IMG/VR virus record: IMGVR_UViG_2858943916_000002
Span: 26,186 to 90,185 of that record
Strand: one strand, 5' to 3'
DNA: 64,000 nucleotides
DNA from: a virus
Taxonomy: Duplodnaviria; Caudoviricetes
The position numbers and the translations under genes were made by a program. The stretch's first letter is position 1. Each line of letters opens with the position of its first letter. This document shows, one piece after another, positions 5,884-13,482 of this stretch. The notes beneath the pieces were generated by a model. That model saw only the letters and a list, made by a program, of their open reading frames with translations. It searched no databases and had not been told where the DNA came from.

Positions 5884-6373
5884 TCTTTACTCCTTTCAAA
5901 TTCTCCAGCTCACAGCCTGGCTGTATCGGGCGGGTATAGACAGCCAAGCTCGGCACGCCCGGCTCGTCGTCCGAAAAATTTGTCGCGTACGGGTACCATT
6001 CCTGTTTCCACACGAGGAGGAATATATGAACAACCAAGTTCAGCAGCAGTTTGGCTTTCGGGTTGAAGATGCAGTAGAAACACCCTATGGTTGGACGGCC
6101 GCGTATTGGATCACTCGGCCTGGTGGGGCAGACCACGTTCGAGTAGATGTGCCTACGGTATTTCCAACATCCAAGGAGGCCGAAGAGAGTGCGCTCATGC
6201 GAGCCGAGGATCATCTTGCAGATGACTATGGCGGCATACGAAAGATCCGAGTTCCGCCAGCTCAACTCATGAGTTTTGGACCAAACGGTAAACGCTAAAT
6301 GGAGCGCTGTACGCCCCTTTGACTGGCCGTCCGTTTCAAGGTTTATCAGGAGCGCCTTGGCCATTGAGTTCAT
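5873..6373 (-). CDS. Antisense bridge ORF across cargo gene 6026..6298
   Basis: ATGA overlap with the upstream stop (6370-6373) and 11-nt overlap with the downstream start (5883); no recognisable protein family. Confidence 0.4.
   Translation of the reverse strand: MNSMAKALLINLETDGQSKGRTALHLAFTVWSKTHELSWRNSDLSYAAIVICKMILGSHERTLFGLLGCWKYRRHIYSNVVCPTRPSDPIRGRPTIGCFYCIFNPKAKLLLNLVVHIFLLVWKQEWYPYATNFSDDEPGVPSLAVYTRPIQPGCELENLKGVKNAA
6026..6298 (+). CDS. Hypothetical protein (cargo)
   Basis: Strong SD GAGGAGG; globular-looking 90 aa. Confidence 0.7.
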   Translation: MNNQVQQQFGFRVEDAVETPYGWTAAYWITRPGGADHVRVDVPTVFPTSKEAEESALMRAEDHLADDYGGIRKIRVPPAQLMSFGPNGKR

Positions 6374-6849
6374 GCCAGGTCACTCACCAAATCCACGGCC
6401 CTGAACCAACTGCCAAGGCCCGCACCGGCCGATGCTCCCGCCGTGTCTCCGCGCGGCTGCGCTGACGCGCATTCGTCGCCAAGCACCCGCAGCATCAACG
6501 CCCCCAATGCCTGCGCGGTCACATTCCCGCTGGCCGCTTCCGCGAAGTCCTTGCGGCTGTGCCGGCTCAGCCAGGGAATCACGCTGTCCGGCACAGGCTG
6601 GCCGGGCAGCGCCGCCTTCAGGCGCCCAGCCAGGATGAACAGGCTTCGACGGTTGTGCATGCGAGCGGTGATGCCTGCCTGCTCCGCGTAGGCCGTGCCG
6701 TGGTGCAGATGGCAGTACCAGTCGGACACGCCGGTCGTGGTGTCAGCGATAGACCCGGGCAGCATGCAGCCCCTGACGCAGCACATGCCGTAGCCCTGGA
6801 CCGGATGCTGGTGGCGGGTCACCGCCGCGGATGCCTCGGCGTAGCTCAT
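6370..6849 (-). CDS. Cys/His-rich phage protein (homolog of 50917..51393)
   Basis: MSYAEASAAV...GYGMC...GC.LPG...DWYC.LH shared with the prophage 2 copy. Confidence 0.75.
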   Translation of the reverse strand: MSYAEASAAVTRHQHPVQGYGMCCVRGCMLPGSIADTTTGVSDWYCHLHHGTAYAEQAGITARMHNRRSLFILAGRLKAALPGQPVPDSVIPWLSRHSRKDFAEAASGNVTAQALGALMLRVLGDECASAQPRGDTAGASAGAGLGSWFRAVDLVSDLA

Positions 6850-7835
6850 GCGGTTCGCTCCTGCTCATCACGCCGGCGACGCAGCTCGGCGAAGATCCGA
6901 TCGCGGTAGCTGGCGTAGGTCTCGCCGCCCCGAGCAAACATGCCCAGTTCACGCCCCACGCGGTCCGTCGCCGCATCGGACTTCCACCACTCGCCCCAGT
7001 CCTGGCCGGTCTCGGCACGAGGCCCCACCGCGTTCGGCACGACGGGAGCGCGAGCTGTTCGCACGCGGTTTCGCCAGGTCGCCAGCCAGTCGAGCTTGCA
7101 GCCCTTCGCTCCTGGCACGGCGGTCCAGTAGTCGCGGAATTCGTCGGCCAGTACGCGCACCTGCTCGGCGGACAGGTCGGGCCGCAGGTCGAGCGCCGCC
7201 TTGCCCCAGGACATCGGCAGAACCCAGTCTGCCGGCAGGCGAGATCCACGCTTCGTGGTGCTGACAGTGTTACGGCTTTTAGAGGTATTACCTACGAAGA
7301 TAGGTATTACCTCTTTCTTATGTTTTATTTCTGTAGGGAAAACTGGTACTGCTTCGGGTTTACCCAGGTGTCCCAAATTTGGTACTGCTTCGGGGTAAGC
7401 GGTACCAGTTTTGGGACTGCTTCCCTCAAAATCATCGGAAGCTATCCCAATTTCGGTACCGCTTAGCTGTCCCAAATCTGGTACTGCTTGGGCTTCGGAA
7501 GCTGTCCCGTTTTCGGTACCGCTTTGCTGATCCGAAGCTGTACCAGAATTGGTACCGCTTGCTGGTTCGCACAGCCGGAACACGACCACCGACTTAGTGG
7601 CCCCTGCCCGCTCGCCGCTATCGACCAGGAAACCTGCGTCGATCAGCCGGCGCAGATTGGCGAGCACCGTCTTGCGGTCTTGCCCAGTCTGCTGCGCGAT
7701 CAGGGTGGTGGATGCAAATGCGCTCCACGGCGCTTGCTTGCCGTGCGCATAATGCGCCAGTGCCACCAGAATGAACTTGGCTGGGGAATGGCAAACAGGC
7801 TGGGCCAATGCCCAAGCGACAGCTTGAGCACTCAT
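6846..7835 (-). CDS. Phage replication initiator (N-terminal HTH, O-like)
   Basis: AKFILVALAHYA...AQQTGQDRKTV HTH; internal iteron array; C-terminal DWLATWRN motif. Confidence 0.85.
   Translation of the reverse strand: MSAQAVAWALAQPVCHSPAKFILVALAHYAHGKQAPWSAFASTTLIAQQTGQDRKTVLANLRRLIDAGFLVDSGERAGATKSVVVFRLCEPASGTNSGTASDQQSGTENGTASEAQAVPDLGQLSGTEIGIASDDFEGSSPKTGTAYPEAVPNLGHLGKPEAVPVFPTEIKHKKEVIPIFVGNTSKSRNTVSTTKRGSRLPADWVLPMSWGKAALDLRPDLSAEQVRVLADEFRDYWTAVPGAKGCKLDWLATWRNRVRTARAPVVPNAVGPRAETGQDWGEWWKSDAATDRVGRELGMFARGGETYASYRDRIFAELRRRRDEQERTA
7270..7560. repeat. Replication origin: 7 iterons plus adjacent AT-rich stretch
   Basis: GG(T/G)AC(T/C)GCTT at 7345, 7381, 7413, 7455, 7480, 7515, 7551, most preceded by TGTCCCAAATTT-like 12-mers; AT-rich 7270-7335. 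Confidence 0.75.
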
Positions 7836-8155
7836 CGTCGTCCCCCAGGGGCCACAACCCTACCCTGCTCTACTACCGGTGCAACTCGTCCAATTCGTCC
7901 AGTGGCATTGCATTCACCACACATTAGCTTTTGAGGTTCACCAGAATACAACCATGCCAGGAATGGTTTGCGCACCAACTCATGGAATCGGTCGCGCGCC
8001 ATTTGATCCAGGTCGAGCTCGGCGCGCGACTCCACACCGGATACGCGACGAATGAACGCAGCGGCCTCATCGGCGCAGTGAACGCCAGCAAAAACCCAGA
8101 ACTTCGGATTTCGACTCAGCCGGACGGCCAGCCAGCAAATCGAATTGGCCTTCAT
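7832..8155 (-). CDS. Conserved phage hypothetical protein
   Basis: ATGA-coupled to the initiator; ESRAELD...FHELVRKPF motif. Confidence 0.75.
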   Translation of the reverse strand: MKANSICWLAVRLSRNPKFWVFAGVHCADEAAAFIRRVSGVESRAELDLDQMARDRFHELVRKPFLAWLYSGEPQKLMCGECNATGRIGRVAPVVEQGRVVAPGGRR

Positions 8156-11100
8156 TCGATATGCTCGAGTAAATCCCCTGCGGCAACACCCCGCTCCTCC
8201 GGCCCCTTACGGCATACACTGTTGGCTCTCACTCTGAACAGACGGGAGACGACCGACCATGAAGAAGTTAATAGTTGCGCTGAGGTATGAGCCATCCGTT
8301 GCGTTGCTCTTCGGGACGGCTGGCGTTGAATACCGCACAGATGGCGTTGTGGCTCCCGATGGGACGCAACTACCGGTGTGCCTATTACTCGTGGCATGCT
8401 CATCGGTTTCAGCCACGGACCATGGCCTTGTACGACTGGAAATTCGCCCAAGAGAGGGCGACCGAGCGCTTCCGTTCTCAGCGGTCTCAGTCCCAGCAGC
8501 ACTCCTTGCCTGGAGCATTGATTCAGGAAACGAGCGAGACTTCCCCGTGGGATTCCTACGTACCCAGGTCTAAGGCCGCGCATTGGCGTTGGGTGCAAGA
8601 GAACTTGATGCCGTAACAGATACCCGCTACTCTTGATAGTTACTTTTCTGTTACATCCAAGCGGAGTTGAAAGTGAATCAAGAGCAACACGAACTACTTG
8701 TCCAAGCTCATCAGCAAATGCTGAACCTTGCTCAAATAAACGAGGTGCAAATGAAGTTGAGCATGTCGATGCGAGAAGATCTGATGGCGGCGCAAATTGC
8801 CCTGCGCGCAGTGTGCGAAGTTCTTTCTCCCGAGGGAAAACGGCTTGCGGCTGAGCACATCCGGGAATTCGGGGAAGAGTTTCGGGATCGATTTGCAAAG
8901 GACCACCCAGACCGGGCGATTGACGGGTTCTCAATTGCAATAAATGCCTATATAGAAGGCTTGGGAGCCGCCCCCATCGCCGAGGGTGTGAAGTAGGACG
9001 CACGACAAAAGCGATTCGCCCATTCGCGCCTGCCAATCGCTGTTCAACTAGGAGATCGATTTGGATAACCCCGTCTATCGCTCCGCGATGGAAGGCCTGC
9101 AGGAAATGTATGGGCCTTTGTCTGGATGGCAAAGCAACGTAGGCGTTCGCACCAACACTTCGCCGAAGGGAAAAATCACCCTTTATCACGATCGAATCGC
9201 TTCCGGAAATAAGGCCGAGCTCGCGGTCGATCCTGAATCGATGGCCCGAGCGACCGGGCAAGGCGAAGACCAAGCCGAAGCTTTCATAAAACAACTGTCG
9301 CAGTTGACGGGGCGCGCCACCCTGACCCATGCAAGGTACAAATGGCCGCGGATCGGCTTGGCTGTGGACTCCGACGTGGAAGCAGTTTTGGAAGCTCTGC
9401 AAACTCTGTTCAATGAGGTGGCCTCGGACGCCCTCTCTTCGGATCCGTCGCCCAGCTACTGGTGGGTGAGCCACAACCAAATGCATCGCCGAGAGCTCAG
9501 CGGCGGCTACATCTGGTGTCCCCAGACCAAGAAAGGCGGCGGGGCGAGAGAAACCTGGACGAACGTATCTCGCGTGCGACGGGGAGACATCGTCTTTTCC
9601 TACGCAAAAACGAAGCTCCAAGCTGTTGGCGTTGCGCTTGGCGATGCACAGGAGGCAAGTGCTCCCAGCGAGGCGTATCACTCGTGGAACGATGCTGGAT
9701 GGCGCGTGACAATCCAGTGGGAATCCCTTGGATCCCCGTTGTCTCCCAAAGAGCATTGGGACGAAATCGGCGACCTTTTCCCTGCTGTCCATTCGCCACT
9801 GCGCGAGGATGGCGGCGGAAACATGACATACCTGGCGGCGTTGAGCGTGCCTCTGGGTTTGAAGCTGCTGGACCTGATCGGCATGACGGACGACGACGCC
9901 CTCGCGAACGTTGATCGGGAGATGGTCAAGGTGTCTGGCGTCGATAAGACCGAGGTTGAGCGGGTCTACCAAGCGCGTATAGGCCAAGGCACATATAGAA
10001 AGAACGTCATGTCCGTCGAACGCTACTGCCGCGTAACGGGTGTCAGCAATGTGGATCTGCTCATCGCGAGCCACATCAGGCCGTGGCGTCAAAGCTCGAA
10101 CCAACAACGCCTCGACGGCAACAATGGCCTGCTTCTCTCGCCTCACGTCGATAAGTTGTTCGACTCGGCCTGGATATCGTTTTCCGATCAGGGAGAGATC
10201 CTGGTTGCCAGCGGAGAGGTCAGAGAGGTGCTCATCGCCTGGGGCATTGACCCAGACATGAACGTAGGGCAATTCAATGAGGACCAAGAAAAATACTTGG
10301 CCTACCATCGAGACGTCCTTTTCTCGGAAAAGGCTAAGCAACCAGAAGAATGAGCGATCGGCCTCAATCGCAATCAGAAGAATCCACAAAGCACCTTGGA
10401 TTGAACCTGGCTGAGTTCGTACGTAATCCCACCAACCTTCACTAGACTCCCTGCAGGGAGCTTCCACATACGCAGCGATTAATCGGGAGATTTGGTCAGA
10501 ATGGCCCTCTACTTTTTGAGCTACGACTTGCGCAAATCCCGCAACTACCAACCGCTGTACGATGAACTGGCAAAGCTCGATGCCACTCGGGTCCTGGAAT
10601 CCCTTTGGGCGTTCAAACTCGCCGACACCAATTGCACATACGTTCGGGACTATTTCCGTCAATTTATCGATGCAGACGATGGGTTGATCGTGACCCAAGC
10701 TGTCGACTGGGCAACTTGGAACACGGATAAAGCCCCACCCAACACATAAGTCACGCCGTGCAGGAGGTAGCACCGCGCCCTCCTCCTGCCGGTCTAACGC
10801 CCGCGCCGCCTGTTCTAGATCAAGATGCGCATACTCAACTGGCGCCAATTTGACTTGGTCGGACACGTCGGGACGAATCCGCAACCTAGAATTGCCAACC
10901 AATTTGGCGGCCAGTTCCAGCCATATATGATCGGGATTCCCCAACCCCAACCATATGTGGAAGGAACTGACCATGGACCCGCAAGTAAGAGGACAATTGG
11001 CGACAATCACCTTCGCGCTTGGCAAACTCATCCGCTCGACCAGCCGTACCGCCGAACAGAGGCAAGACGAGGTGGAGCGGCTGCGGAGCTGGGCGGACCA

Positions 11101-11211
11101 CCAGCTCAAAGAGGCATATCGCGCGGGCGCAGATTCTGCCGGCCTCACGCCGGAGCAACAAGCCTTCCTGTCAGGAGTCCACGACACCGTAGACCAGTTG
11201 GCATGGCTCAT
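8152..11211 (-). CDS. 1019-codon antisense bridge ORF across five plus-strand cargo genes
   Basis: Stop-free in the ORF track; ATGA overlaps at both ends (11208-11211, 8152-8155); product has no recognisable motifs. Confidence 0.35.
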   Translation of the reverse strand: MSHANWSTVSWTPDRKACCSGVRPAESAPARYASLSWWSAQLRSRSTSSCLCSAVRLVERMSLPSAKVIVANCPLTCGSMVSSFHIWLGLGNPDHIWLELAAKLVGNSRLRIRPDVSDQVKLAPVEYAHLDLEQAARALDRQEEGAVLPPARRDLCVGWGFIRVPSCPVDSLGHDQPIVCIDKLTEIVPNVCAIGVGEFERPKGFQDPSGIELCQFIVQRLVVAGFAQVVAQKVEGHSDQISRLIAAYVEAPCRESSEGWWDYVRTQPGSIQGALWILLIAIEADRSFFWLLSLFREKDVSMVGQVFFLVLIELPYVHVWVNAPGDEHLSDLSAGNQDLSLIGKRYPGRVEQLIDVRREKQAIVAVEALLVRALTPRPDVARDEQIHIADTRYAAVAFDGHDVLSICALAYTRLVDPLNLGLIDARHLDHLPINVREGVVVRHADQVQQLQTQRHAQRRQVCHVSAAILAQWRMDSREKVADFVPMLFGRQRGSKGFPLDCHAPSSIVPRVIRLAGSTCLLCIAKRNANSLELRFCVGKDDVSPSHARYVRPGFSRPAAFLGLGTPDVAAAELSAMHLVVAHPPVAGRRIRREGVRGHLIEQSLQSFQNCFHVGVHSQADPRPFVPCMGQGGAPRQLRQLFYESFGLVFALPGRSGHRFRIDRELGLISGSDSIVIKGDFSLRRSVGANAYVALPSRQRPIHFLQAFHRGAIDGVIQIDLLVEQRLAGANGRIAFVVRPTSHPRRWGRLPSLLYRHLLQLRTRQSPGLGGPLQIDPETLPRIPGCAQPQAVFPREKELRTLRAGQFAPPSDLLASTCSTSFAPRLFEQGSAFADELGQVVRVALDSLSTPLGCNRKVTIKSSGYLLRHQVLLHPTPMRGLRPGYVGIPRGSLARFLNQCSRQGVLLGLRPLRTEALGRPLLGEFPVVQGHGPWLKPMSMPRVIGTPVVASHREPQRHLCGIQRQPSRRATQRMAHTSAQLLTSSWSVVSRLFRVRANSVCRKGPEERGVAAGDLLEHIE
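8259..8573 (+). CDS. Hypothetical protein (cargo)
   Basis: 104-aa ORF with GGGAG upstream. Confidence 0.6.
   Translation: MKKLIVALRYEPSVALLFGTAGVEYRTDGVVAPDGTQLPVCLLLVACSSVSATDHGLVRLEIRPREGDRALPFSAVSVPAALLAWSIDSGNERDFPVGFLRTQV
8667..8996 (+). CDS. Hypothetical helical/coiled-coil protein (cargo)
   Basis: GGAG SD (GTG 8673 is an alternative start); Q/E-rich helical pattern. Confidence 0.6.
   Translation: MKVNQEQHELLVQAHQQMLNLAQINEVQMKLSMSMREDLMAAQIALRAVCEVLSPEGKRLAAEHIREFGEEFRDRFAKDHPDRAIDGFSIAINAYIEGLGAAPIAEGVK
9061..10353 (+). CDS. EVE/PUA-like plus HNH endonuclease (modification-dependent restriction, VcaM4I-like) with an extra N-terminal domain
   Basis: YWWVS..Q....E..GGYIW.P and GDIVFS (EVE-like); R.GQG.YR, CRVTG, LIASHIRPW, RLDG.NGLLL.PH.D.LFD (HNH); TTG start with AGGAG. 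Confidence 0.82.
   Translation: MDNPVYRSAMEGLQEMYGPLSGWQSNVGVRTNTSPKGKITLYHDRIASGNKAELAVDPESMARATGQGEDQAEAFIKQLSQLTGRATLTHARYKWPRIGLAVDSDVEAVLEALQTLFNEVASDALSSDPSPSYWWVSHNQMHRRELSGGYIWCPQTKKGGGARETWTNVSRVRRGDIVFSYAKTKLQAVGVALGDAQEASAPSEAYHSWNDAGWRVTIQWESLGSPLSPKEHWDEIGDLFPAVHSPLREDGGGNMTYLAALSVPLGLKLLDLIGMTDDDALANVDREMVKVSGVDKTEVERVYQARIGQGTYRKNVMSVERYCRVTGVSNVDLLIASHIRPWRQSSNQQRLDGNNGLLLSPHVDKLFDSAWISFSDQGEILVASGEVREVLIAWGIDPDMNVGQFNEDQEKYLAYHRDVLFSEKAKQPEE
10501..10749 (+). CDS. Stand-alone Cas2/VapD-like small protein
   Basis: N-terminal strand YFLSYDL with an acidic D, Y..L..EL helix, ES.W, D.DD.L; 82 aa; no array nearby. Confidence 0.6.
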   Translation: MALYFLSYDLRKSRNYQPLYDELAKLDATRVLESLWAFKLADTNCTYVRDYFRQFIDADDGLIVTQAVDWATWNTDKAPPNT

Positions 11212-11293
11212 CGACTCCCCCGTTTACCCTCAGGGCCAAACGAGCGGTACATCCGCTCCGCGCAACGACGATCCCAGTCCTCCTGATCTCTGA
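10973..11293 (+). CDS. Hypothetical helical protein (cargo)
   Basis: SD GGAAGGA before ATG 10973 (MDPQVRG...). Confidence 0.65.
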   Translation: MDPQVRGQLATITFALGKLIRSTSRTAEQRQDEVERLRSWADHQLKEAYRAGADSAGLTPEQQAFLSGVHDTVDQLAWLIDSPVYPQGQTSGTSAPRNDDPSPPDL

Positions 11294-11363
11294 CGTCGCG
11301 GGTGTATCGGCGCAGCGCGGGCGTAATTAACCAGAGCAAGGCGCGGGCATACAGTTCACGCAT
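11208..11363 (-). CDS. 51-aa phage protein MRELYARALLWLITPALRR...
   Basis: Translated manually; 8-nt overlap with the upstream stop and ATGA overlap with the 1019-codon ORF. Confidence 0.6.
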   Translation of the reverse strand: MRELYARALLWLITPALRRYTRDVRDQEDWDRRCAERMYRSFGPEGKRGSR

Positions 11364-11712
11364 GGCAGCCCCCACTCGCGTCGGTATCTGGCGACTGCTC
11401 TTTGAACTTGCGCTCCCAGCCGATCACGAGGTAGCCAAACGGTCGGCTCCACTCCGTCACACCGGCTGGCGGGACCGCGCCAGGAATGATCTCGGCCAAC
11501 TCATATGTGAACCGCCCTGCGACATCGCCAACGGGTCGAAAGGTGGCATAGCCAATGTGGTTGCCGGCGCCATCACGTAGGCGCATGCCCAAGAGCGTCG
11601 GAGCTTCAGGGCGCATTTTTGGCCCCTCAAGCACCAGTCGAACGCCACCGCGGCCCGCAGGCTCGAGCCAGGCGTTGATATCGAGGTCAGCGTAGGTTCG
11701 GAATTCACGCAT
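11356..11712 (-). CDS. Hypothetical phage protein (MREFRTY...)
   Basis: Strong SD AAGGAG before ATG 11712. Confidence 0.65.
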   Translation of the reverse strand: MREFRTYADLDINAWLEPAGRGGVRLVLEGPKMRPEAPTLLGMRLRDGAGNHIGYATFRPVGDVAGRFTYELAEIIPGAVPPAGVTEWSRPFGYLVIGWERKFKEQSPDTDASGGCHA

Positions 11713-11968
11713 TGGAGGCTCCTTGCTGCGAATGGGCGCCCTGCCCCTTCCCCTTAAACTGGCTGCTCTCACACAAACCATCCTTGGGAAAGGAGCTGGG
11801 CATGGAAAAAACGGCGCGGCAGCAGTTCGACGACCTGCTGAAGGAATCGCACTTCTTCAACGATTCGATCAACACGGCAAAGCGAGCCGCTGGATACGCG
11901 GCCGGGCAAATCCTCGGCGCCCTCATCGAAGGGGATGTCACCATGTACGAAAAGCTCAAGCGACTCAT
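11705..11968 (-). CDS. Antisense bridge ORF B across cargo 11802..12143
   Basis: ATGA start overlap at 11965-11968 and ATGCGTGA end overlap at 11705-11712. Confidence 0.4.
   Translation of the reverse strand: MSRLSFSYMVTSPSMRAPRICPAAYPAARFAVLIESLKKCDSFSRSSNCCRAVFSMPSSFPKDGLCESSQFKGKGQGAHSQQGASNA
11733..11806 (+). promoter_or_regulatory. 74-bp cargo promoter/RBS element shared with prophage 2 (54521..54594)
   Basis: 67/74 identical by manual alignment; TAAACT -10-like hexamer, AAAGG(A/G)G SD and ATG. Confidence 0.65.
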
Positions 11969-12143
11969 GGCCGAAGACTTCCAGCGAGACTCGGACCAAG
12001 GCCCGAGCCTGGACAGTGCAGCTCGGCTGGTGCTCCATGGAATTCAGCAGGGACTCGATTCGGTTGCGCGTCCAAGCGCGCGGCTGCAGCAGACGCGGCA
12101 GCGTTCGGCCGCGCGGTCGCCGGGGAACCCAGCCGCCGACTGA
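11802..12143 (+). CDS. Hypothetical protein (cargo)
   Basis: Starts at the ATG of the shared element (MEKTARQQF...). Confidence 0.65.
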   Translation: MEKTARQQFDDLLKESHFFNDSINTAKRAAGYAAGQILGALIEGDVTMYEKLKRLMAEDFQRDSDQGPSLDSAARLVLHGIQQGLDSVARPSARLQQTRQRSAARSPGNPAAD

Positions 12144-12243
12144 TCGCTACCATCACCAGCGCACGTTGCATGGCGCGCCTGATCTGCGGCGGCCCGAAAG
12201 CCTTGGCGCCCTTCTCGCGCCCATATCCAGCCCGATTACGCAT
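11965..12243 (-). CDS. Post-cro ORF A / antisense bridge
   Basis: ATGCGTAA overlap with the cro stop; stop overlaps the ORF B start. Confidence 0.45.
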   Translation of the reverse strand: MRNRAGYGREKGAKAFGPPQIRRAMQRALVMVAISRRLGSPATARPNAAASAAAARLDAQPNRVPAEFHGAPAELHCPGSGLGPSLAGSLRP

Positions 12244-12523
12244 GGCTTGGCTCCTGCGGCGCGGCCGCGGCCAGCTCCGGCCAGAGACGCCCGTAGTCAT
12301 TGGGCCGCAAGTCCTGGCGGCGGCATTCGCCATCGGTGATCAATTCAATGTCCGCAGCGATAAGGCCGGCGAGCTTATAGCCGTAAGCGACCTGGCGGAG
12401 GTATCCCACCGACGTGCCACGTTGGCGACAGCGTGCCTGCGCTTCCAGCTTGGGGGTCTTCCTCAACCACTGGAGCAAAGGCTCCACTGGCACTCTTGTT
12501 CGGGATAAGGGTTGTTGACTCAT
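12236..12523 (-). CDS. cro: Cro-like transcriptional regulator (YdaS-type)
   Basis: GTSVGYLRQVAYG HTH, ...DLRP.D...WPEL tail, divergent from the repressor. Confidence 0.85.
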   Translation of the reverse strand: MSQQPLSRTRVPVEPLLQWLRKTPKLEAQARCRQRGTSVGYLRQVAYGYKLAGLIAADIELITDGECRRQDLRPNDYGRLWPELAAAAPQEPSHA

Positions 12524-12532
12524 CCTAAAACA

Positions 12533-12594
12533 TTACCGCAGGGTAATTATTTTGACAAGAAAAATTTACCCCTGGGTTGTTTACCTGCGGGTAG
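12533..12594. promoter_or_regulatory. OR operators of prophage 1 (three TTACC-N4-GGTAA sites)
   Basis: ttaccgcagggtaa 12533, ttacccctgggttg 12566, ttacctgcgggtag 12581; TTGACA at 12552. Confidence 0.8.
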
Positions 12595-12616
12595 CTGTCA
12601 GGCAACACTTCACACC

Positions 12617-12994
12617 ATGGAAATTGACGATATCTACGCAGTCCGCCTTCAGCGCTTTCGGACCCTGATGGACGACCGGTTCGGCGGCAAACAAGCCGCG
12701 ATCGCTACTGCGGTTGGCAAGCCAGCCAACTATGTTTCCCGCATCATCAGCGGGAATAAAAAGCTGGGCGAAGAAATCGTCCGGGAATTCGAGACATCCC
12801 TGGACCTTCCCGCGTATTGGTTTGACGGGCTAACCGATACAACGGCATGGCCCTTCCCTAGCGTCAGCCGAGCGGCGTATGAGTCGCTTACGCCCGAACA
12901 ACGCCGTGGCATCGAACAATGGGTTGCTAGGCAAGTGGAAGCATTCGGCGACACGCACACGCCGGGCGCGGGTAACTCCAAAAAGAGCGCCTAG
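12617..12994 (+). CDS. cI: CI-like repressor, HTH only (125 aa, no S24 peptidase domain)
   Basis: RLQRFRTL...KQAAIATAVGKPANYVSRII...REFE..L.LP.YWFD; divergent from cro. Confidence 0.8.
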   Translation: MEIDDIYAVRLQRFRTLMDDRFGGKQAAIATAVGKPANYVSRIISGNKKLGEEIVREFETSLDLPAYWFDGLTDTTAWPFPSVSRAAYESLTPEQRRGIEQWVARQVEAFGDTHTPGAGNSKKSA

Positions 12995-13022
12995 GCGTCG
13001 ACCGACGGCTGCATCAACGACT

Positions 13023-13310
13023 TCAGTCTACGTAGATCGGTTCCCCTGCAAGGGTAGGCTCGCGCTGCTGCGCAGCCGCGTCCTGAATTGCGTACCGCAA
13101 TTGAACGATCTCCCTGCGCGTCAGAAAATCTGGCATCCCAATCGTGGCCAACAGCGCCAACGGGCCGAGCACCACTCCCCATAAGAACCAGCACGCTCCG
13201 CATGCCCCTTTGGCATTGGCGATGTGATGCGCCAGGAATGCTGAAACGAACCAGGAGGCCACCAATAGGATGGCCCAGATCGAAGTAAGCAGAAACGCCA
13301 ACACCGTCAT
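13023..13310 (-). CDS. Small membrane protein in the immunity region
   Basis: Two hydrophobic segments, WFLWGVVLGPLALL; GGAGAG SD. Confidence 0.65.
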   Translation of the reverse strand: MTVLAFLLTSIWAILLVASWFVSAFLAHHIANAKGACGACWFLWGVVLGPLALLATIGMPDFLTRREIVQLRYAIQDAAAQQREPTLAGEPIYVD

Positions 13311-13426
13311 CTCACTCTCCTTGGAAGCTGAACCGCCAATGGGGAGCTAATCGTAACAGATTGATTCTTAAATCTCGTTCTATCTCCTAGACGCGGAAAG
13401 GGTCCTACTTTCGCTTCCCGCCAAGA

Positions 13427-13465
13427 TTACCTACAGGTATTCCTATAATATTTACCTACAGGTAA
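13427..13465. promoter_or_regulatory. OL operators / PL of prophage 1
   Basis: ttacctacaggtat 13427 and ttacctacaggtaa 13452 flanking TATAAT. Confidence 0.8.
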
Positions 13466-13482
13466 TTTTTTAGGAGACCACC

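What the first reader, a model, noticed from the sequence alone, without database searches (positions are those of the whole stretch)
9061..10353. Prophage-borne EVE-HNH modification-dependent nuclease with an unknown N-terminal domain of about 130 aa
Residues from about 133 on match, from memory, the VcaM4I-type EVE-HNH architecture that cuts 5mC/5hmC DNA. The first ~130 residues (MDNPVY...EALQTLF) are extra and unrecognised. They could be a second reader or a regulatory domain. Carriage by a temperate phage suggests defence against modified-DNA competitors.
Basis: partly seen in the sequence, partly recalled or inferred. Interest (0 to 1): 0.7.

Follow-up and report, generated by a model that had tools for sequence, protein, structure and literature searches.

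The report
Modified-DNA nuclease with extra plug-in domain
A prophage gene encodes a well-known type of nuclease that cuts DNA carrying modified cytosine. It is fused to a small, previously unannotated domain that also occurs next to or fused with other nucleases and methylases of this kind, and is probably an extra DNA-recognition module.

Summary
ORF 9061-10353 (+, 430 aa) starts at TTG, with AGGAG 6 nt upstream. Residues 132-422 align with the solved EVE-HNH enzyme VcaM4I (PDB 6yex, E 1.7e-66). All four catalytic residues and the flipped-base pocket are kept.

The first ~125 residues are real and translated, not a mis-called start.
- They match, from residue 1, a rare family of mostly stand-alone 106-129-aa "hypothetical" proteins. 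No Pfam, NCBIfam, PADLOC or PHROG model covers this family.
- With the family alignment they fold at pLDDT 94.6.
- The best structural match is the DNA-binding C-terminal domain of phage T4 MotA (Z 6.9-7.3, moderate).

This module ("N-dom") recurs in DNA-modification conflict settings:
- fused to an EcoKMcrA-type HNH, in the place of McrA's reader domain;
- next to a VcaM4I-like gene;
- next to SRA-HNH genes;
- next to a C5 methyltransferase;
- inside DISARM operons.

A 96-99% identical EVE-HNH core exists without N-dom, with the border in the linker. AlphaFold gives no fixed docking.

Best reading: a type IV restriction enzyme with a plug-in second DNA-recognition module. The function is inferred, not shown. 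The scan has met EVE-HNH genes often, but not this N-terminal domain on other DNA.

The parts
9050..9054 (+). Shine-Dalgarno-like AGGAG, 6 nt before the TTG start
   Evidence: Read directly from the sequence.
9061..9432 (+). N-dom, residues 1-124. A new small alpha/beta domain (H4-17, four strands, H58-65, H69-83, strand 97-100, H103-126). Conserved residues: G28, R30, T40, Y42, G49, N50, E53, A55, T83, W95, P96, R97, G99.
   Evidence: 35 hits in 1.8 billion representative proteins, nearly all stand-alone proteins of about 120 aa, E down to 9e-22. Alignment A1. AF2 pLDDT 94.6, pTM 0.86. Best fold match T4 MotA C-terminal domain, Z 6.9-7.3. No Pfam family for any of 31 members.
9433..9453 (+). 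Inter-domain linker, residues 125-131. It holds the module border at nt 9438.
   Evidence: pLDDT below 50 at residues 125-128 in the full-length model. Contig X18 and proteins P0003/P0004 carry the same core, but different sequence upstream of this point.
9454..9882 (+). VcaM4I-type EVE (PUA-like) modified-cytosine reader, residues 132-274. Pocket: P154, W209, Y257, E145, W152.
   Evidence: Alignment to 6yex. Residue roles taken from PMC7897488. W134, W135, W152, P154 and W209 are invariant in 67 relatives.
9883..9936 (+). Linker helix, residues 275-292. It corresponds to VcaM4I's auto-inhibitory helix 148-178 but is 13 residues shorter.
   Evidence: Gaps in the alignment. The helix's role is from PMC7897488.
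9937..10353 (+). HNH (beta-beta-alpha-Me) nuclease domain, residues 293-430, plus stop codon. Catalytic residues H338, N355, D364, D368.
   Evidence: Pfam HNH_2 at 323-374, E 3e-11. PADLOC HNH E 1.9e-23. Equivalence to VcaM4I H224/N241/D250/D254. These residues are invariant in alignment A4.
8667..8996 (+). Upstream 109-aa helical ORF of unknown family on the same strand. Possibly co-transcribed; not shown to belong to the system.
   Evidence: No family hit. Kept together with the nuclease gene in related phage L038. RNA-library contigs X16 (8659-9572) and X15 (8819-9590) bridge it to the nuclease gene.

Best explanation
[quoted passage not shown] By homology, the EVE domain (132-274) flips 5mC/5hmC-type bases into a pocket formed by P154/W209/Y257. 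The HNH domain (293-430; H338, D364, D368) dimerises and cuts nearby DNA. The added N-terminal module (1-124) is an independently folding, flexibly tethered domain of a new family. It most likely binds DNA and adds affinity, or sequence or modification selectivity, to targeting. This would parallel the NEco domain in EcoKMcrA and the extra reader in ScoMcrA. The domain is a plug-in: the nuclease core works as a unit without it, and the same module is combined with other HNH nucleases. Shown: the architecture, the homology, the conserved residues, the modularity and the genomic associations. Inferred: DNA binding by N-dom, the substrate, and the defence role.
For: 1. Core identity: E 1.7e-66 to 6yex over the whole VcaM4I chain. 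Catalytic and pocket residues are conserved.
2. N-dom is a real domain. It aligns from M1 with a family of stand-alone proteins. AF2 pLDDT is 94.6. Base composition by codon position looks like coding sequence and matches the core. The fusion is kept in P0005 (62% identity), P0002, L038 and L033.
3. P0131, P0138 and P0154 are N-dom plus an EcoKMcrA-type HNH (6ghc, E 1.3e-28) with no other domain.
4. Genomic company. A stand-alone N-dom gene follows a 550-aa VcaM4I-like gene in L019 (E 4e-96). It sits divergent to SRA-like plus McrA-HNH genes in L026 and L039. It sits next to a 680-700-aa C5 methyltransferase in one Pseudomonas prophage lineage. It lies inside DISARM operons between DrmB and DrmD in three taxa.
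5. Fold. The best and clearly separated match is the T4 MotA DNA-binding domain, with 99 of 103 residues aligned at Z 7.3 and 6.9, against 5.0 for the next unrelated chain. The double-wing proteins PSPTO_3016 and YjbR follow at Z 4.9 and 4.7. MotA binds modified T4 DNA. NEco was itself reported as MotA-like (PMC6182155, PMC7145662). Double-wing YjbR-EVE-nuclease fusions are described in PMC7641849.
6. Plug-in behaviour. P0003 and P0004 have a 99% and 96% identical core without N-dom. The border is at nt 9438 in the linker. The full-length AF2 model has pTM 0.49 with confident domains and a disordered linker.
7. The family is mostly basic, median pI 8.9. Conserved R30, R97, Y42, W95, N50 and E53 alternate along neighbouring strands, so they should lie on one sheet face.
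Against: No DNA-binding or cleavage data exist for N-dom or for this protein. The fold match is only moderate (Z about 7, 8% identity), which the tool notes can be reached by unrelated folds. N-dom shows no sequence relation to NEco (hhalign probability 0.2%), and no Pfam double-wing family matched any member. The window's own copy of N-dom is acidic (pI 5.3, net charge -3), unlike most of the family. Most family members are stand-alone, and many sit in contexts without a nuclease, for example the conserved Herminiimonas locus. The basic function may therefore be something other than targeting a nuclease. Some of the associations are single lineages: the C5 methyltransferase pairing is one related prophage group.
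Confidence: 0.5

Rival explanations
1. N-dom is a regulatory domain rather than a DNA reader. It might keep the nuclease off by auto-inhibition, or sense a phage or host protein or a small ligand and release the nuclease. Stand-alone copies would act in trans on neighbouring HNH enzymes.
For: VcaM4I-type enzymes are auto-inhibited and toxic when deregulated (PMC7897488). Here the inhibitory linker helix is 13 residues shorter, so an added control element is conceivable. Stand-alone N-dom genes lie beside HNH nuclease genes. The fused copy is acidic. The invariant R30/E53/R97 plus W95/Y42 cluster could be a ligand site.
Against: A 99% identical core exists without N-dom, so no co-adapted interface is apparent. 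N-dom is combined with two unrelated HNH families, HNH_2 and McrA-type. In the 232-aa fusions it is the only non-catalytic domain, the usual place of a reader. AF2 gives no confident docking (pTM 0.49). N-dom also occurs next to a methyltransferase and in DISARM, where there is no HNH to regulate.
Confidence: 0.22
2. N-dom is a passenger. A small phage or mobile-element gene, for example a DNA-binding regulator, became fused in frame to the nuclease gene by recombination. It contributes little to nuclease function.
For: The fusion is rare: none of the best 80 VcaM4I-like loci has N-dom fused or within 5 kb. The module border is sharp and recent. Most family members are stand-alone. The region is a recombination hotspot.
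Against: The fusion persists in lineages only 62-66% identical, with the N-dom motifs intact (P0005, P0006). Synonymous and non-synonymous changes between the window and L033 number 9 each, which by my rough estimate of site numbers suggests purifying selection. An independent fusion to McrA-type HNH occurs in three diverged proteins. The repeated nuclease neighbourhoods argue for a functional link.
Confidence: 0.13
3. The annotated start is wrong. Translation begins near residue 120-131 (for example GTG 9418), and the upstream 120 codons are not part of the nuclease.
For: An in-frame GTG exists at codon 120. VcaM4I-like proteins normally start just before the YWWV motif.
Against: There is no Shine-Dalgarno motif before GTG 9418, whereas AGGAG precedes TTG 9061. 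The upstream codons encode a conserved protein family aligned from residue 1 that folds at pLDDT 94.6. The frame is continuous in P0002, P0005, L038 and L033. NCBI annotates the 437-aa form. A short isoform made in addition cannot be excluded.
Confidence: 0.03

Closest known systems
VcaM4I / TspA15I / CmeDI group of EVE-HNH modification-dependent restriction endonucleases (PDB 6yex; PMC7897488, PMC6765204)
   Same: Homologous over the whole VcaM4I chain (E 1.7e-66). Same order of EVE, linker helix and HNH. Same catalytic residues (H, N, D, D) and same flipped-base pocket (P, W, Y, E, W). No cytosine-5 methyltransferase in the phage record.
   Different: It carries an extra 131-residue N-terminal domain of an unannotated family. 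The linker helix is 13 residues shorter. Two base-contacting positions differ: T11 becomes M141, and the wedge residue Q128 becomes M255.
EcoKMcrA (NEco reader + HNH; PDB 6ghc; PMC6182155, PMC7145662)
   Same: Relatives of N-dom (P0131, P0138, P0154) are fused to an HNH homologous to McrA's (E 1.3e-28), in the position NEco holds. Both NEco (per those papers) and N-dom (this work) have T4 MotA's C-terminal domain as a distant structural neighbour.
   Different: There is no detectable sequence relation between N-dom and NEco (hhalign probability 0.2%). NEco did not appear in the fold-search lists. The window's enzyme uses the HNH_2-type nuclease and keeps an EVE reader as well.
ScoMcrA (SBD + SRA + HNH) and YenY4I (PUA-like + DUF3427 + PD-(D/E)XK): type IV enzymes with two recognition domains
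   Same: One nuclease domain is combined with two separate putative DNA-recognition modules.
   Different: The extra modules differ. Their reader functions were studied experimentally, while N-dom's is inferred.
MmcQ/YjbR (double-wing) - EVE fusions, some with nucleases (Bell et al. 2020, PMC7641849)
   Same: A small MotA-like alpha/beta domain sits in front of an EVE domain, sometimes with a nuclease. It was proposed there to add sequence specificity.
   Different: N-dom does not match Pfam PF04237 or any other family. Structural similarity to YjbR-type proteins is weak (Z 4.7-4.9). The nuclease here is HNH.
Phage T4 MotA C-terminal DNA-binding domain (PDB 1kaf, 5jlt)
   Same: It is the best structural match (Z 6.9-7.3; 99 residues aligned, covering nearly the whole domain). 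MotA binds DNA that contains modified cytosine.
   Different: Sequence identity is 8% and there is no sequence-level relation. MotA is a transcription activator with an N-terminal sigma-binding domain. The match is moderate and may reflect fold only.

Membership tests
VcaM4I/TspA15I-group EVE-HNH type IV restriction endonuclease | Sequence homology across EVE, linker and HNH to a characterised member | tested here: met
   Residues 132-422 align with 6yex_A 2-307, E 1.7e-66, 228 bits.
VcaM4I/TspA15I-group EVE-HNH type IV restriction endonuclease | HNH active site (VcaM4I H224, N241, D250, D254) | tested here: met
   H338, N355, D364 and D368 align with them. They are invariant in 67 relatives.
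VcaM4I/TspA15I-group EVE-HNH type IV restriction endonuclease | Flipped-base pocket (P24, W82, Y130; E15, W22) | tested here: met
   P154, W209, Y257, E145 and W152 are conserved. T11 and Q128 are replaced by M141 and M255.
VcaM4I/TspA15I-group EVE-HNH type IV restriction endonuclease | Two-domain architecture of about 300 aa with nothing else | tested here: not met
   The protein is 430 aa with an additional N-terminal domain. It is a variant architecture on a member core.
VcaM4I/TspA15I-group EVE-HNH type IV restriction endonuclease | Cleavage stimulated by 5mC/5hmC, and restriction of modified phage | not testable with these tools
   This needs enzyme assays and phage plating.
VcaM4I/TspA15I-group EVE-HNH type IV restriction endonuclease | No cognate cytosine methyltransferase in the element | tested here: met
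   No PF00145 match in the 90-kb virus record. The host chromosome was not available.
Double-wing / MotA C-terminal-domain-like DNA-binding fold (including MmcQ/YjbR, PF04237) | Structural similarity over the whole domain | tested here: inconclusive
   1kaf_E Z 7.3, 5jlt_A Z 6.9 (99 residues, rmsd 3.3-3.4); 2kfp Z 4.9; 2fki Z 4.7. The next unrelated chain scores Z 5.0. Foldseek found nothing at E <= 1e-3.
Double-wing / MotA C-terminal-domain-like DNA-binding fold (including MmcQ/YjbR, PF04237) | Sequence match to the Pfam family models | tested here: not met
   No Pfam family matched N-dom in any of the 31 members at E <= 10. Only the HNH families matched, in the three fused members.
NEco (EcoKMcrA N-terminal modified-cytosine reader) | Sequence or profile similarity to NEco | tested here: not met
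   hhalign of profile A1 against EcoKMcrA residues 1-143 gave probability 0.2%. A profile search of PDB sequences matched only the HNH part of 6ghc.
NEco (EcoKMcrA N-terminal modified-cytosine reader) | Position directly N-terminal to a McrA-type HNH | tested here: met
   This holds for relatives P0131, P0138 and P0154. It does not hold for the window's protein, whose nuclease is HNH_2.
NEco (EcoKMcrA N-terminal modified-cytosine reader) | Structural similarity to NEco | tested here: inconclusive
   NEco chains are not among the rows listed by the fold searches. The tools state that absence from a list does not exclude a family.

The most novel reading that the evidence does not exclude
N-dom is a new, non-PUA class of reader for modified cytosine, or another DNA modification. 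It would be a MotA/NEco-like double-wing domain that bacteria and phages use stand-alone, beside methyltransferases and DISARM, and as the targeting module of HNH nucleases. The Achromobacter prophage enzyme would then be a dual-reader type IV enzyme needing two marks, or a mark plus a sequence.
Probability: 0.3. Interest if true: 0.75.

Novelty: new variant of a known kind. Interest (0 to 1): 0.55.

Why it matters
Type IV restriction enzymes are both phage-defence genes and laboratory tools for mapping 5mC and 5hmC. Their usefulness depends on the reader domains. Known readers are few: SRA, EVE/YTH/ASCH, NEco, winged helix, DUF3427 and SBD. This work points to a compact 120-residue family that no domain library covers. 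It repeatedly sits where a reader would sit, and it has a natural pair of near-identical enzymes with and without it. That makes its contribution directly testable. It also shows that prophages swap such modules at a precise linker border within a variable cargo slot between cro and the replication genes.

Tried and rejected
Contexts of the metagenomic stand-alone homologues could therefore not be fetched. I used a degenerate DNA pattern on genome and viral collections instead.
- The search for related loci with alignments A1 and A2 failed for lack of conserved stretches. With the window's own N-dom it found no relative in species genomes.
Rewriting it with N{123,123} worked.
- A MAFFT alignment mixing many core-only sequences with N-dom sequences misplaced the N-dom rows (A3). 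It was replaced by A5, with 8 diverse core sequences.
- Foldseek against PDB gave nothing at E <= 1e-3.
- NEco was not listed in any fold search, and hhalign against the NEco sequence was negative. I did not build an NEco profile.
- The ESM Atlas gave only unnamed clusters; one weak row (score 0.84) had DUF5655 on 15% of its members. I did not use this.
- Megablast of 8000-12000 against the phage collection found no match.
- The promoter and terminator scan of 8100-11000 was at chance level.
- RNA evidence consists of contigs from metatranscriptome libraries only. They show that the N-dom and EVE parts are contiguous in those libraries. They show neither a transcript start nor an expression level, and DNA carry-over cannot be excluded. 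Parts of the gene without contig cover are not evidence of anything.
- A Cas2-like partner was considered and rejected as obligatory, because related phage L038 keeps the nuclease gene but loses homology 80 nt into that gene.
Full report
**Observation**

An ORF occupies exactly 9061..10353 on the + strand (430 aa). It begins with TTG, and AGGAG lies at 9050-9054, 6 nt upstream. Pfam recognises only HNH_2 at residues 323-374 (E 3e-11). PADLOC gives HNH and restriction-enzyme models over 296-426. NCBIfam and PHROGs add nothing for the N-terminus.

**The core is a VcaM4I-type enzyme**

Against all PDB sequences, residues 132-422 align with the whole chain of VcaM4I (6yex_A residues 2-307) at E 1.7e-66. 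I mapped the residues named in the VcaM4I paper (PMC7897488) onto that alignment.

- Catalytic residues: H224, N241, D250 and D254 correspond to H338, N355, D364 and D368.
- Flipped-base pocket: P24, W82 and Y130, plus E15 and W22, correspond to P154, W209, Y257, E145 and W152.
- All of these are invariant or nearly so in 67 relatives.
- Two base-contacting positions differ: T11 becomes M141 and the wedge residue Q128 becomes M255.
- The linker helix, which is auto-inhibitory in VcaM4I, is 13 residues shorter here.

**Setting**

The window is part of a 90-kb IMG/VR virus record. The gene lies on the strand opposite the early lytic genes. It sits between a replication-initiator gene (6846-7835, -) and cro/cI-type regulators (12236-12994). 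The window also holds RecT, ParB, a tail protein with tape-measure and lysozyme-like parts, tail sheath, baseplate, portal and large terminase genes. No cytosine-5 methyltransferase (PF00145) is present in the record, as expected for a type IV enzyme. A related phage contig, L038, shares 6369-10571 at 97.6% identity. It then diverges 80 nt into the downstream Cas2-like gene, and 10572-12264 is replaced. The slot between cro and the replication genes is therefore a variable cargo site, and the Cas2-like gene is not an obligatory partner.

**The N-terminal 131 residues are real**

- An exhaustive HMMER search of residues 1-131 against 1.8 billion representative proteins found 35 hits with E down to 9e-22. 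Nearly all are stand-alone proteins of 99-129 aa, and they align from their own first residue (MDNPVY here; MENPxY/F in the best hits). TTG 9061 is therefore the natural start.
- An internal GTG at codon 120 (nt 9418) has no ribosome-binding motif.
- The fused form recurs in an NCBI Achromobacter xylosoxidans protein (P0002, 97% identity), in two IMG/VR contigs (L038, L033), and in P0005 (62% identical overall, N-dom motifs intact). P0006 (66% identity) carries part of N-dom as annotated.
- Between the window and L033, the N-dom codons show 9 synonymous and 9 non-synonymous differences. By my rough estimate of site numbers, this points to purifying selection.
- GC by codon position looks like coding sequence and matches the core.
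- With the 31-sequence alignment A1, AlphaFold2 gives pLDDT 94.6 and pTM 0.86 for a compact alpha/beta domain.
- None of the 31 family members matches any Pfam family outside the HNH parts of the three fused ones. All database names are "hypothetical protein".

**Fold of N-dom**

Foldseek found nothing significant. VIA-align against 48,161 PDB representatives, and against Foldseek's top 1000 chains, put the DNA-binding C-terminal domain of T4 MotA first. Scores were 1kaf_E Z 7.3, 5jlt_A Z 6.9 and 6k4y_M Z 6.4, with 99 residues aligned at rmsd 3.3-3.4, covering nearly the whole MotA domain. The next unrelated chain scored about 5.0. Other small proteins followed: YgaC (Z 5.9) and the "double-wing" proteins PSPTO_3016 (4.9) and YjbR (4.7). 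This is moderate evidence of a shared fold and is no proof of function.

Three points from the literature make it relevant.
- MotA's domain binds T4 DNA containing modified cytosine.
- The modified-cytosine reader NEco of EcoKMcrA was itself reported to resemble MotA (PMC6182155, PMC7145662).
- Double-wing YjbR domains fused to EVE domains, sometimes with nucleases, have been described and proposed to add sequence specificity (PMC7641849).

At sequence level, N-dom is unrelated to NEco (hhalign probability 0.2%).

**Company that N-dom keeps**

A degenerate DNA pattern built from two conserved motifs retrieved 26 confirmed loci in species genomes and 9 in viral contigs.

- P0131, P0138 and P0154 (232-237 aa) are N-dom followed directly by an HNH homologous to EcoKMcrA's (6ghc, E 1.3e-28). 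N-dom there sits where NEco sits in McrA.
- In Pseudomonas paralcaligenes (L019), a stand-alone N-dom gene follows a 550-aa protein whose residues 242-547 are VcaM4I-like (E 4e-96).
- In L026 and viral contig L039, N-dom lies divergent to a 325-355-aa protein with an SRA-like region and a McrA-type HNH. PADLOC calls it a type IV methyl-directed restriction enzyme.
- In one lineage of Pseudomonas prophages (L009, L032, L036, L037), N-dom lies divergent to a 680-700-aa cytosine-5 methyltransferase. These methyltransferases are 77-97% identical, so this counts as one association.
- In L014, L028 and L005 (an Anaerolineales MAG, Variovorax and Azohydromonas), N-dom lies inside a DISARM operon, next to DrmB (E 1.5e-80), a NERD-helicase and DrmD (E 1.6e-250).
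- About a dozen Herminiimonas/Oxalobacteraceae genomes carry N-dom in a conserved chromosomal locus, followed by an unknown 127-128-aa gene.

The family is thus tied to DNA-modification conflict systems and repeatedly to HNH nucleases. It also exists alone.

**Modularity**

- P0003 and P0004 have cores 99% and 96% identical to the window's, but a different, short N-terminus.
- A soil metatranscriptome contig (X18) matches only 9438-10345. It has loose ends on both sides, and the letters upstream encode the P0003 N-terminus. The module border therefore lies in linker codon 126.
- The full-length AlphaFold2 model has confident domains (mean pLDDT 84.8), but pTM 0.49 and a disordered stretch at residues 125-128. 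No fixed docking is predicted.
- Among the best 80 VcaM4I-like loci in species genomes, none has N-dom fused or within 5 kb. The fusion is rare.
- Other family members carry other add-ons: DUF7662, a second Pfam-recognised EVE, and a C-terminal DUF1643.

**Interpretation**

The core is, with high confidence, a VcaM4I-type modification-dependent endonuclease. For N-dom I favour a tethered DNA-recognition module (about 0.5). The reasons are these.

- It combines with two unrelated HNH families, and also with a methyltransferase and DISARM.
- It needs no co-adapted core.
- Its best fold match is a DNA-binding domain for modified DNA.
- The family is mostly basic (median pI 8.9).
- It has a conserved Arg/Tyr/Trp/Asn/Glu set on alternating positions of adjacent strands.

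Against this reading, there are no biochemical data, the fold score is only moderate, and the window's own copy is acidic (pI 5.3). A regulatory or auto-inhibitory role (about 0.2), a passenger fusion (about 0.13) and a wrong start (about 0.03) remain as rivals.

**RNA evidence**

Contigs from two metatranscriptome libraries bridge the upstream 109-aa gene, N-dom and the start of the EVE domain (X16: 8659-9572; X15: 8819-9590). This is compatible with one transcript. It does not show transcription start or level, and DNA carry-over cannot be excluded.

**Novelty**

The EVE-HNH enzyme is a known kind, and this scan has met it often. The scan had not met the N-terminal domain on other DNA. I found no description of it in the papers searched. 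This is a new variant of a known kind. It offers a natural with/without pair of enzymes that makes the domain's role directly testable.

Noticed in passing
window 10492-10749 (+): An 85-aa Cas2-like ORF lies directly downstream (Pfam CRISPR_Cas2 E 2e-4, below the family cut-off; phrog_1090 E 1.7e-15). There is no PADLOC hit. Homology with related phage L038 stops at 10571, inside this gene, so it is not an obligatory partner of the nuclease.
   Followed up: partly
window 9438 and 10345: These are sharp borders of an exchangeable EVE-HNH cassette. A soil metatranscriptome contig (X18) matches only 9438-10345, with unrelated sequence on both sides. Its upstream letters encode the N-terminus seen in P0003 and P0004.
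   Followed up: partly
L014:2559-2996, L028:1089-1463, L005:2825-3256: A stand-alone N-dom gene is embedded in DISARM operons, between DrmB plus a NERD-helicase and DrmD, in three distant taxa. As far as I know, no such small gene is among the named DISARM components (from memory, not checked here).
   Followed up: partly
L009:5625-5981, L032:3451-3810, L036:6500-6859, L037:7250-7609: In one Pseudomonas prophage lineage, the N-dom gene is divergently paired with a 680-700-aa cytosine-5 DNA methyltransferase.
   Followed up: partly
L007:5110-5493 and 11 other Herminiimonas/Oxalobacteraceae loci: A conserved 127-128-aa gene of no known family always follows the stand-alone N-dom gene in a fixed chromosomal locus. 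The locus lies near two-component-system genes in some genomes and an autotransporter gene in others.
   Followed up: no
L019:1843-3495 (-); P0071, P0079: The 550-aa VcaM4I-like protein has a 241-residue N-terminal extension. By eye, part of it resembles the ~100-aa insert between EVE and HNH in the Aeromonas/compost proteins P0071 and P0079, which may be CmeDI-like (both are Aeromonas or compost-metagenome proteins; not checked). Other relatives carry DUF7662, a second EVE or DUF1643. The family collects accessory domains.
   Followed up: no
window 8152-11211 (-): The 1019-codon antisense ORF noted by other readers is codon-aligned with the EVE-HNH and Cas2-like genes. The EVE-HNH gene has no TTA, CTA or TCA codons, which is what keeps that antisense frame open over it. 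The homology evidence is all on the + strand.
   Followed up: partly
window 10572-12264 and 12511-13471: These stretches are replaced or absent in the otherwise 95-98% identical phage contig L038. The cro-proximal region is a mosaic cargo hotspot.
   Followed up: partly
window 9061-9432: The fused N-dom copies of this prophage lineage are acidic (pI 5.1-5.3). The family median is pI 8.9, and the fused copy in P0005 is net basic by my count of charged residues.
   Followed up: no
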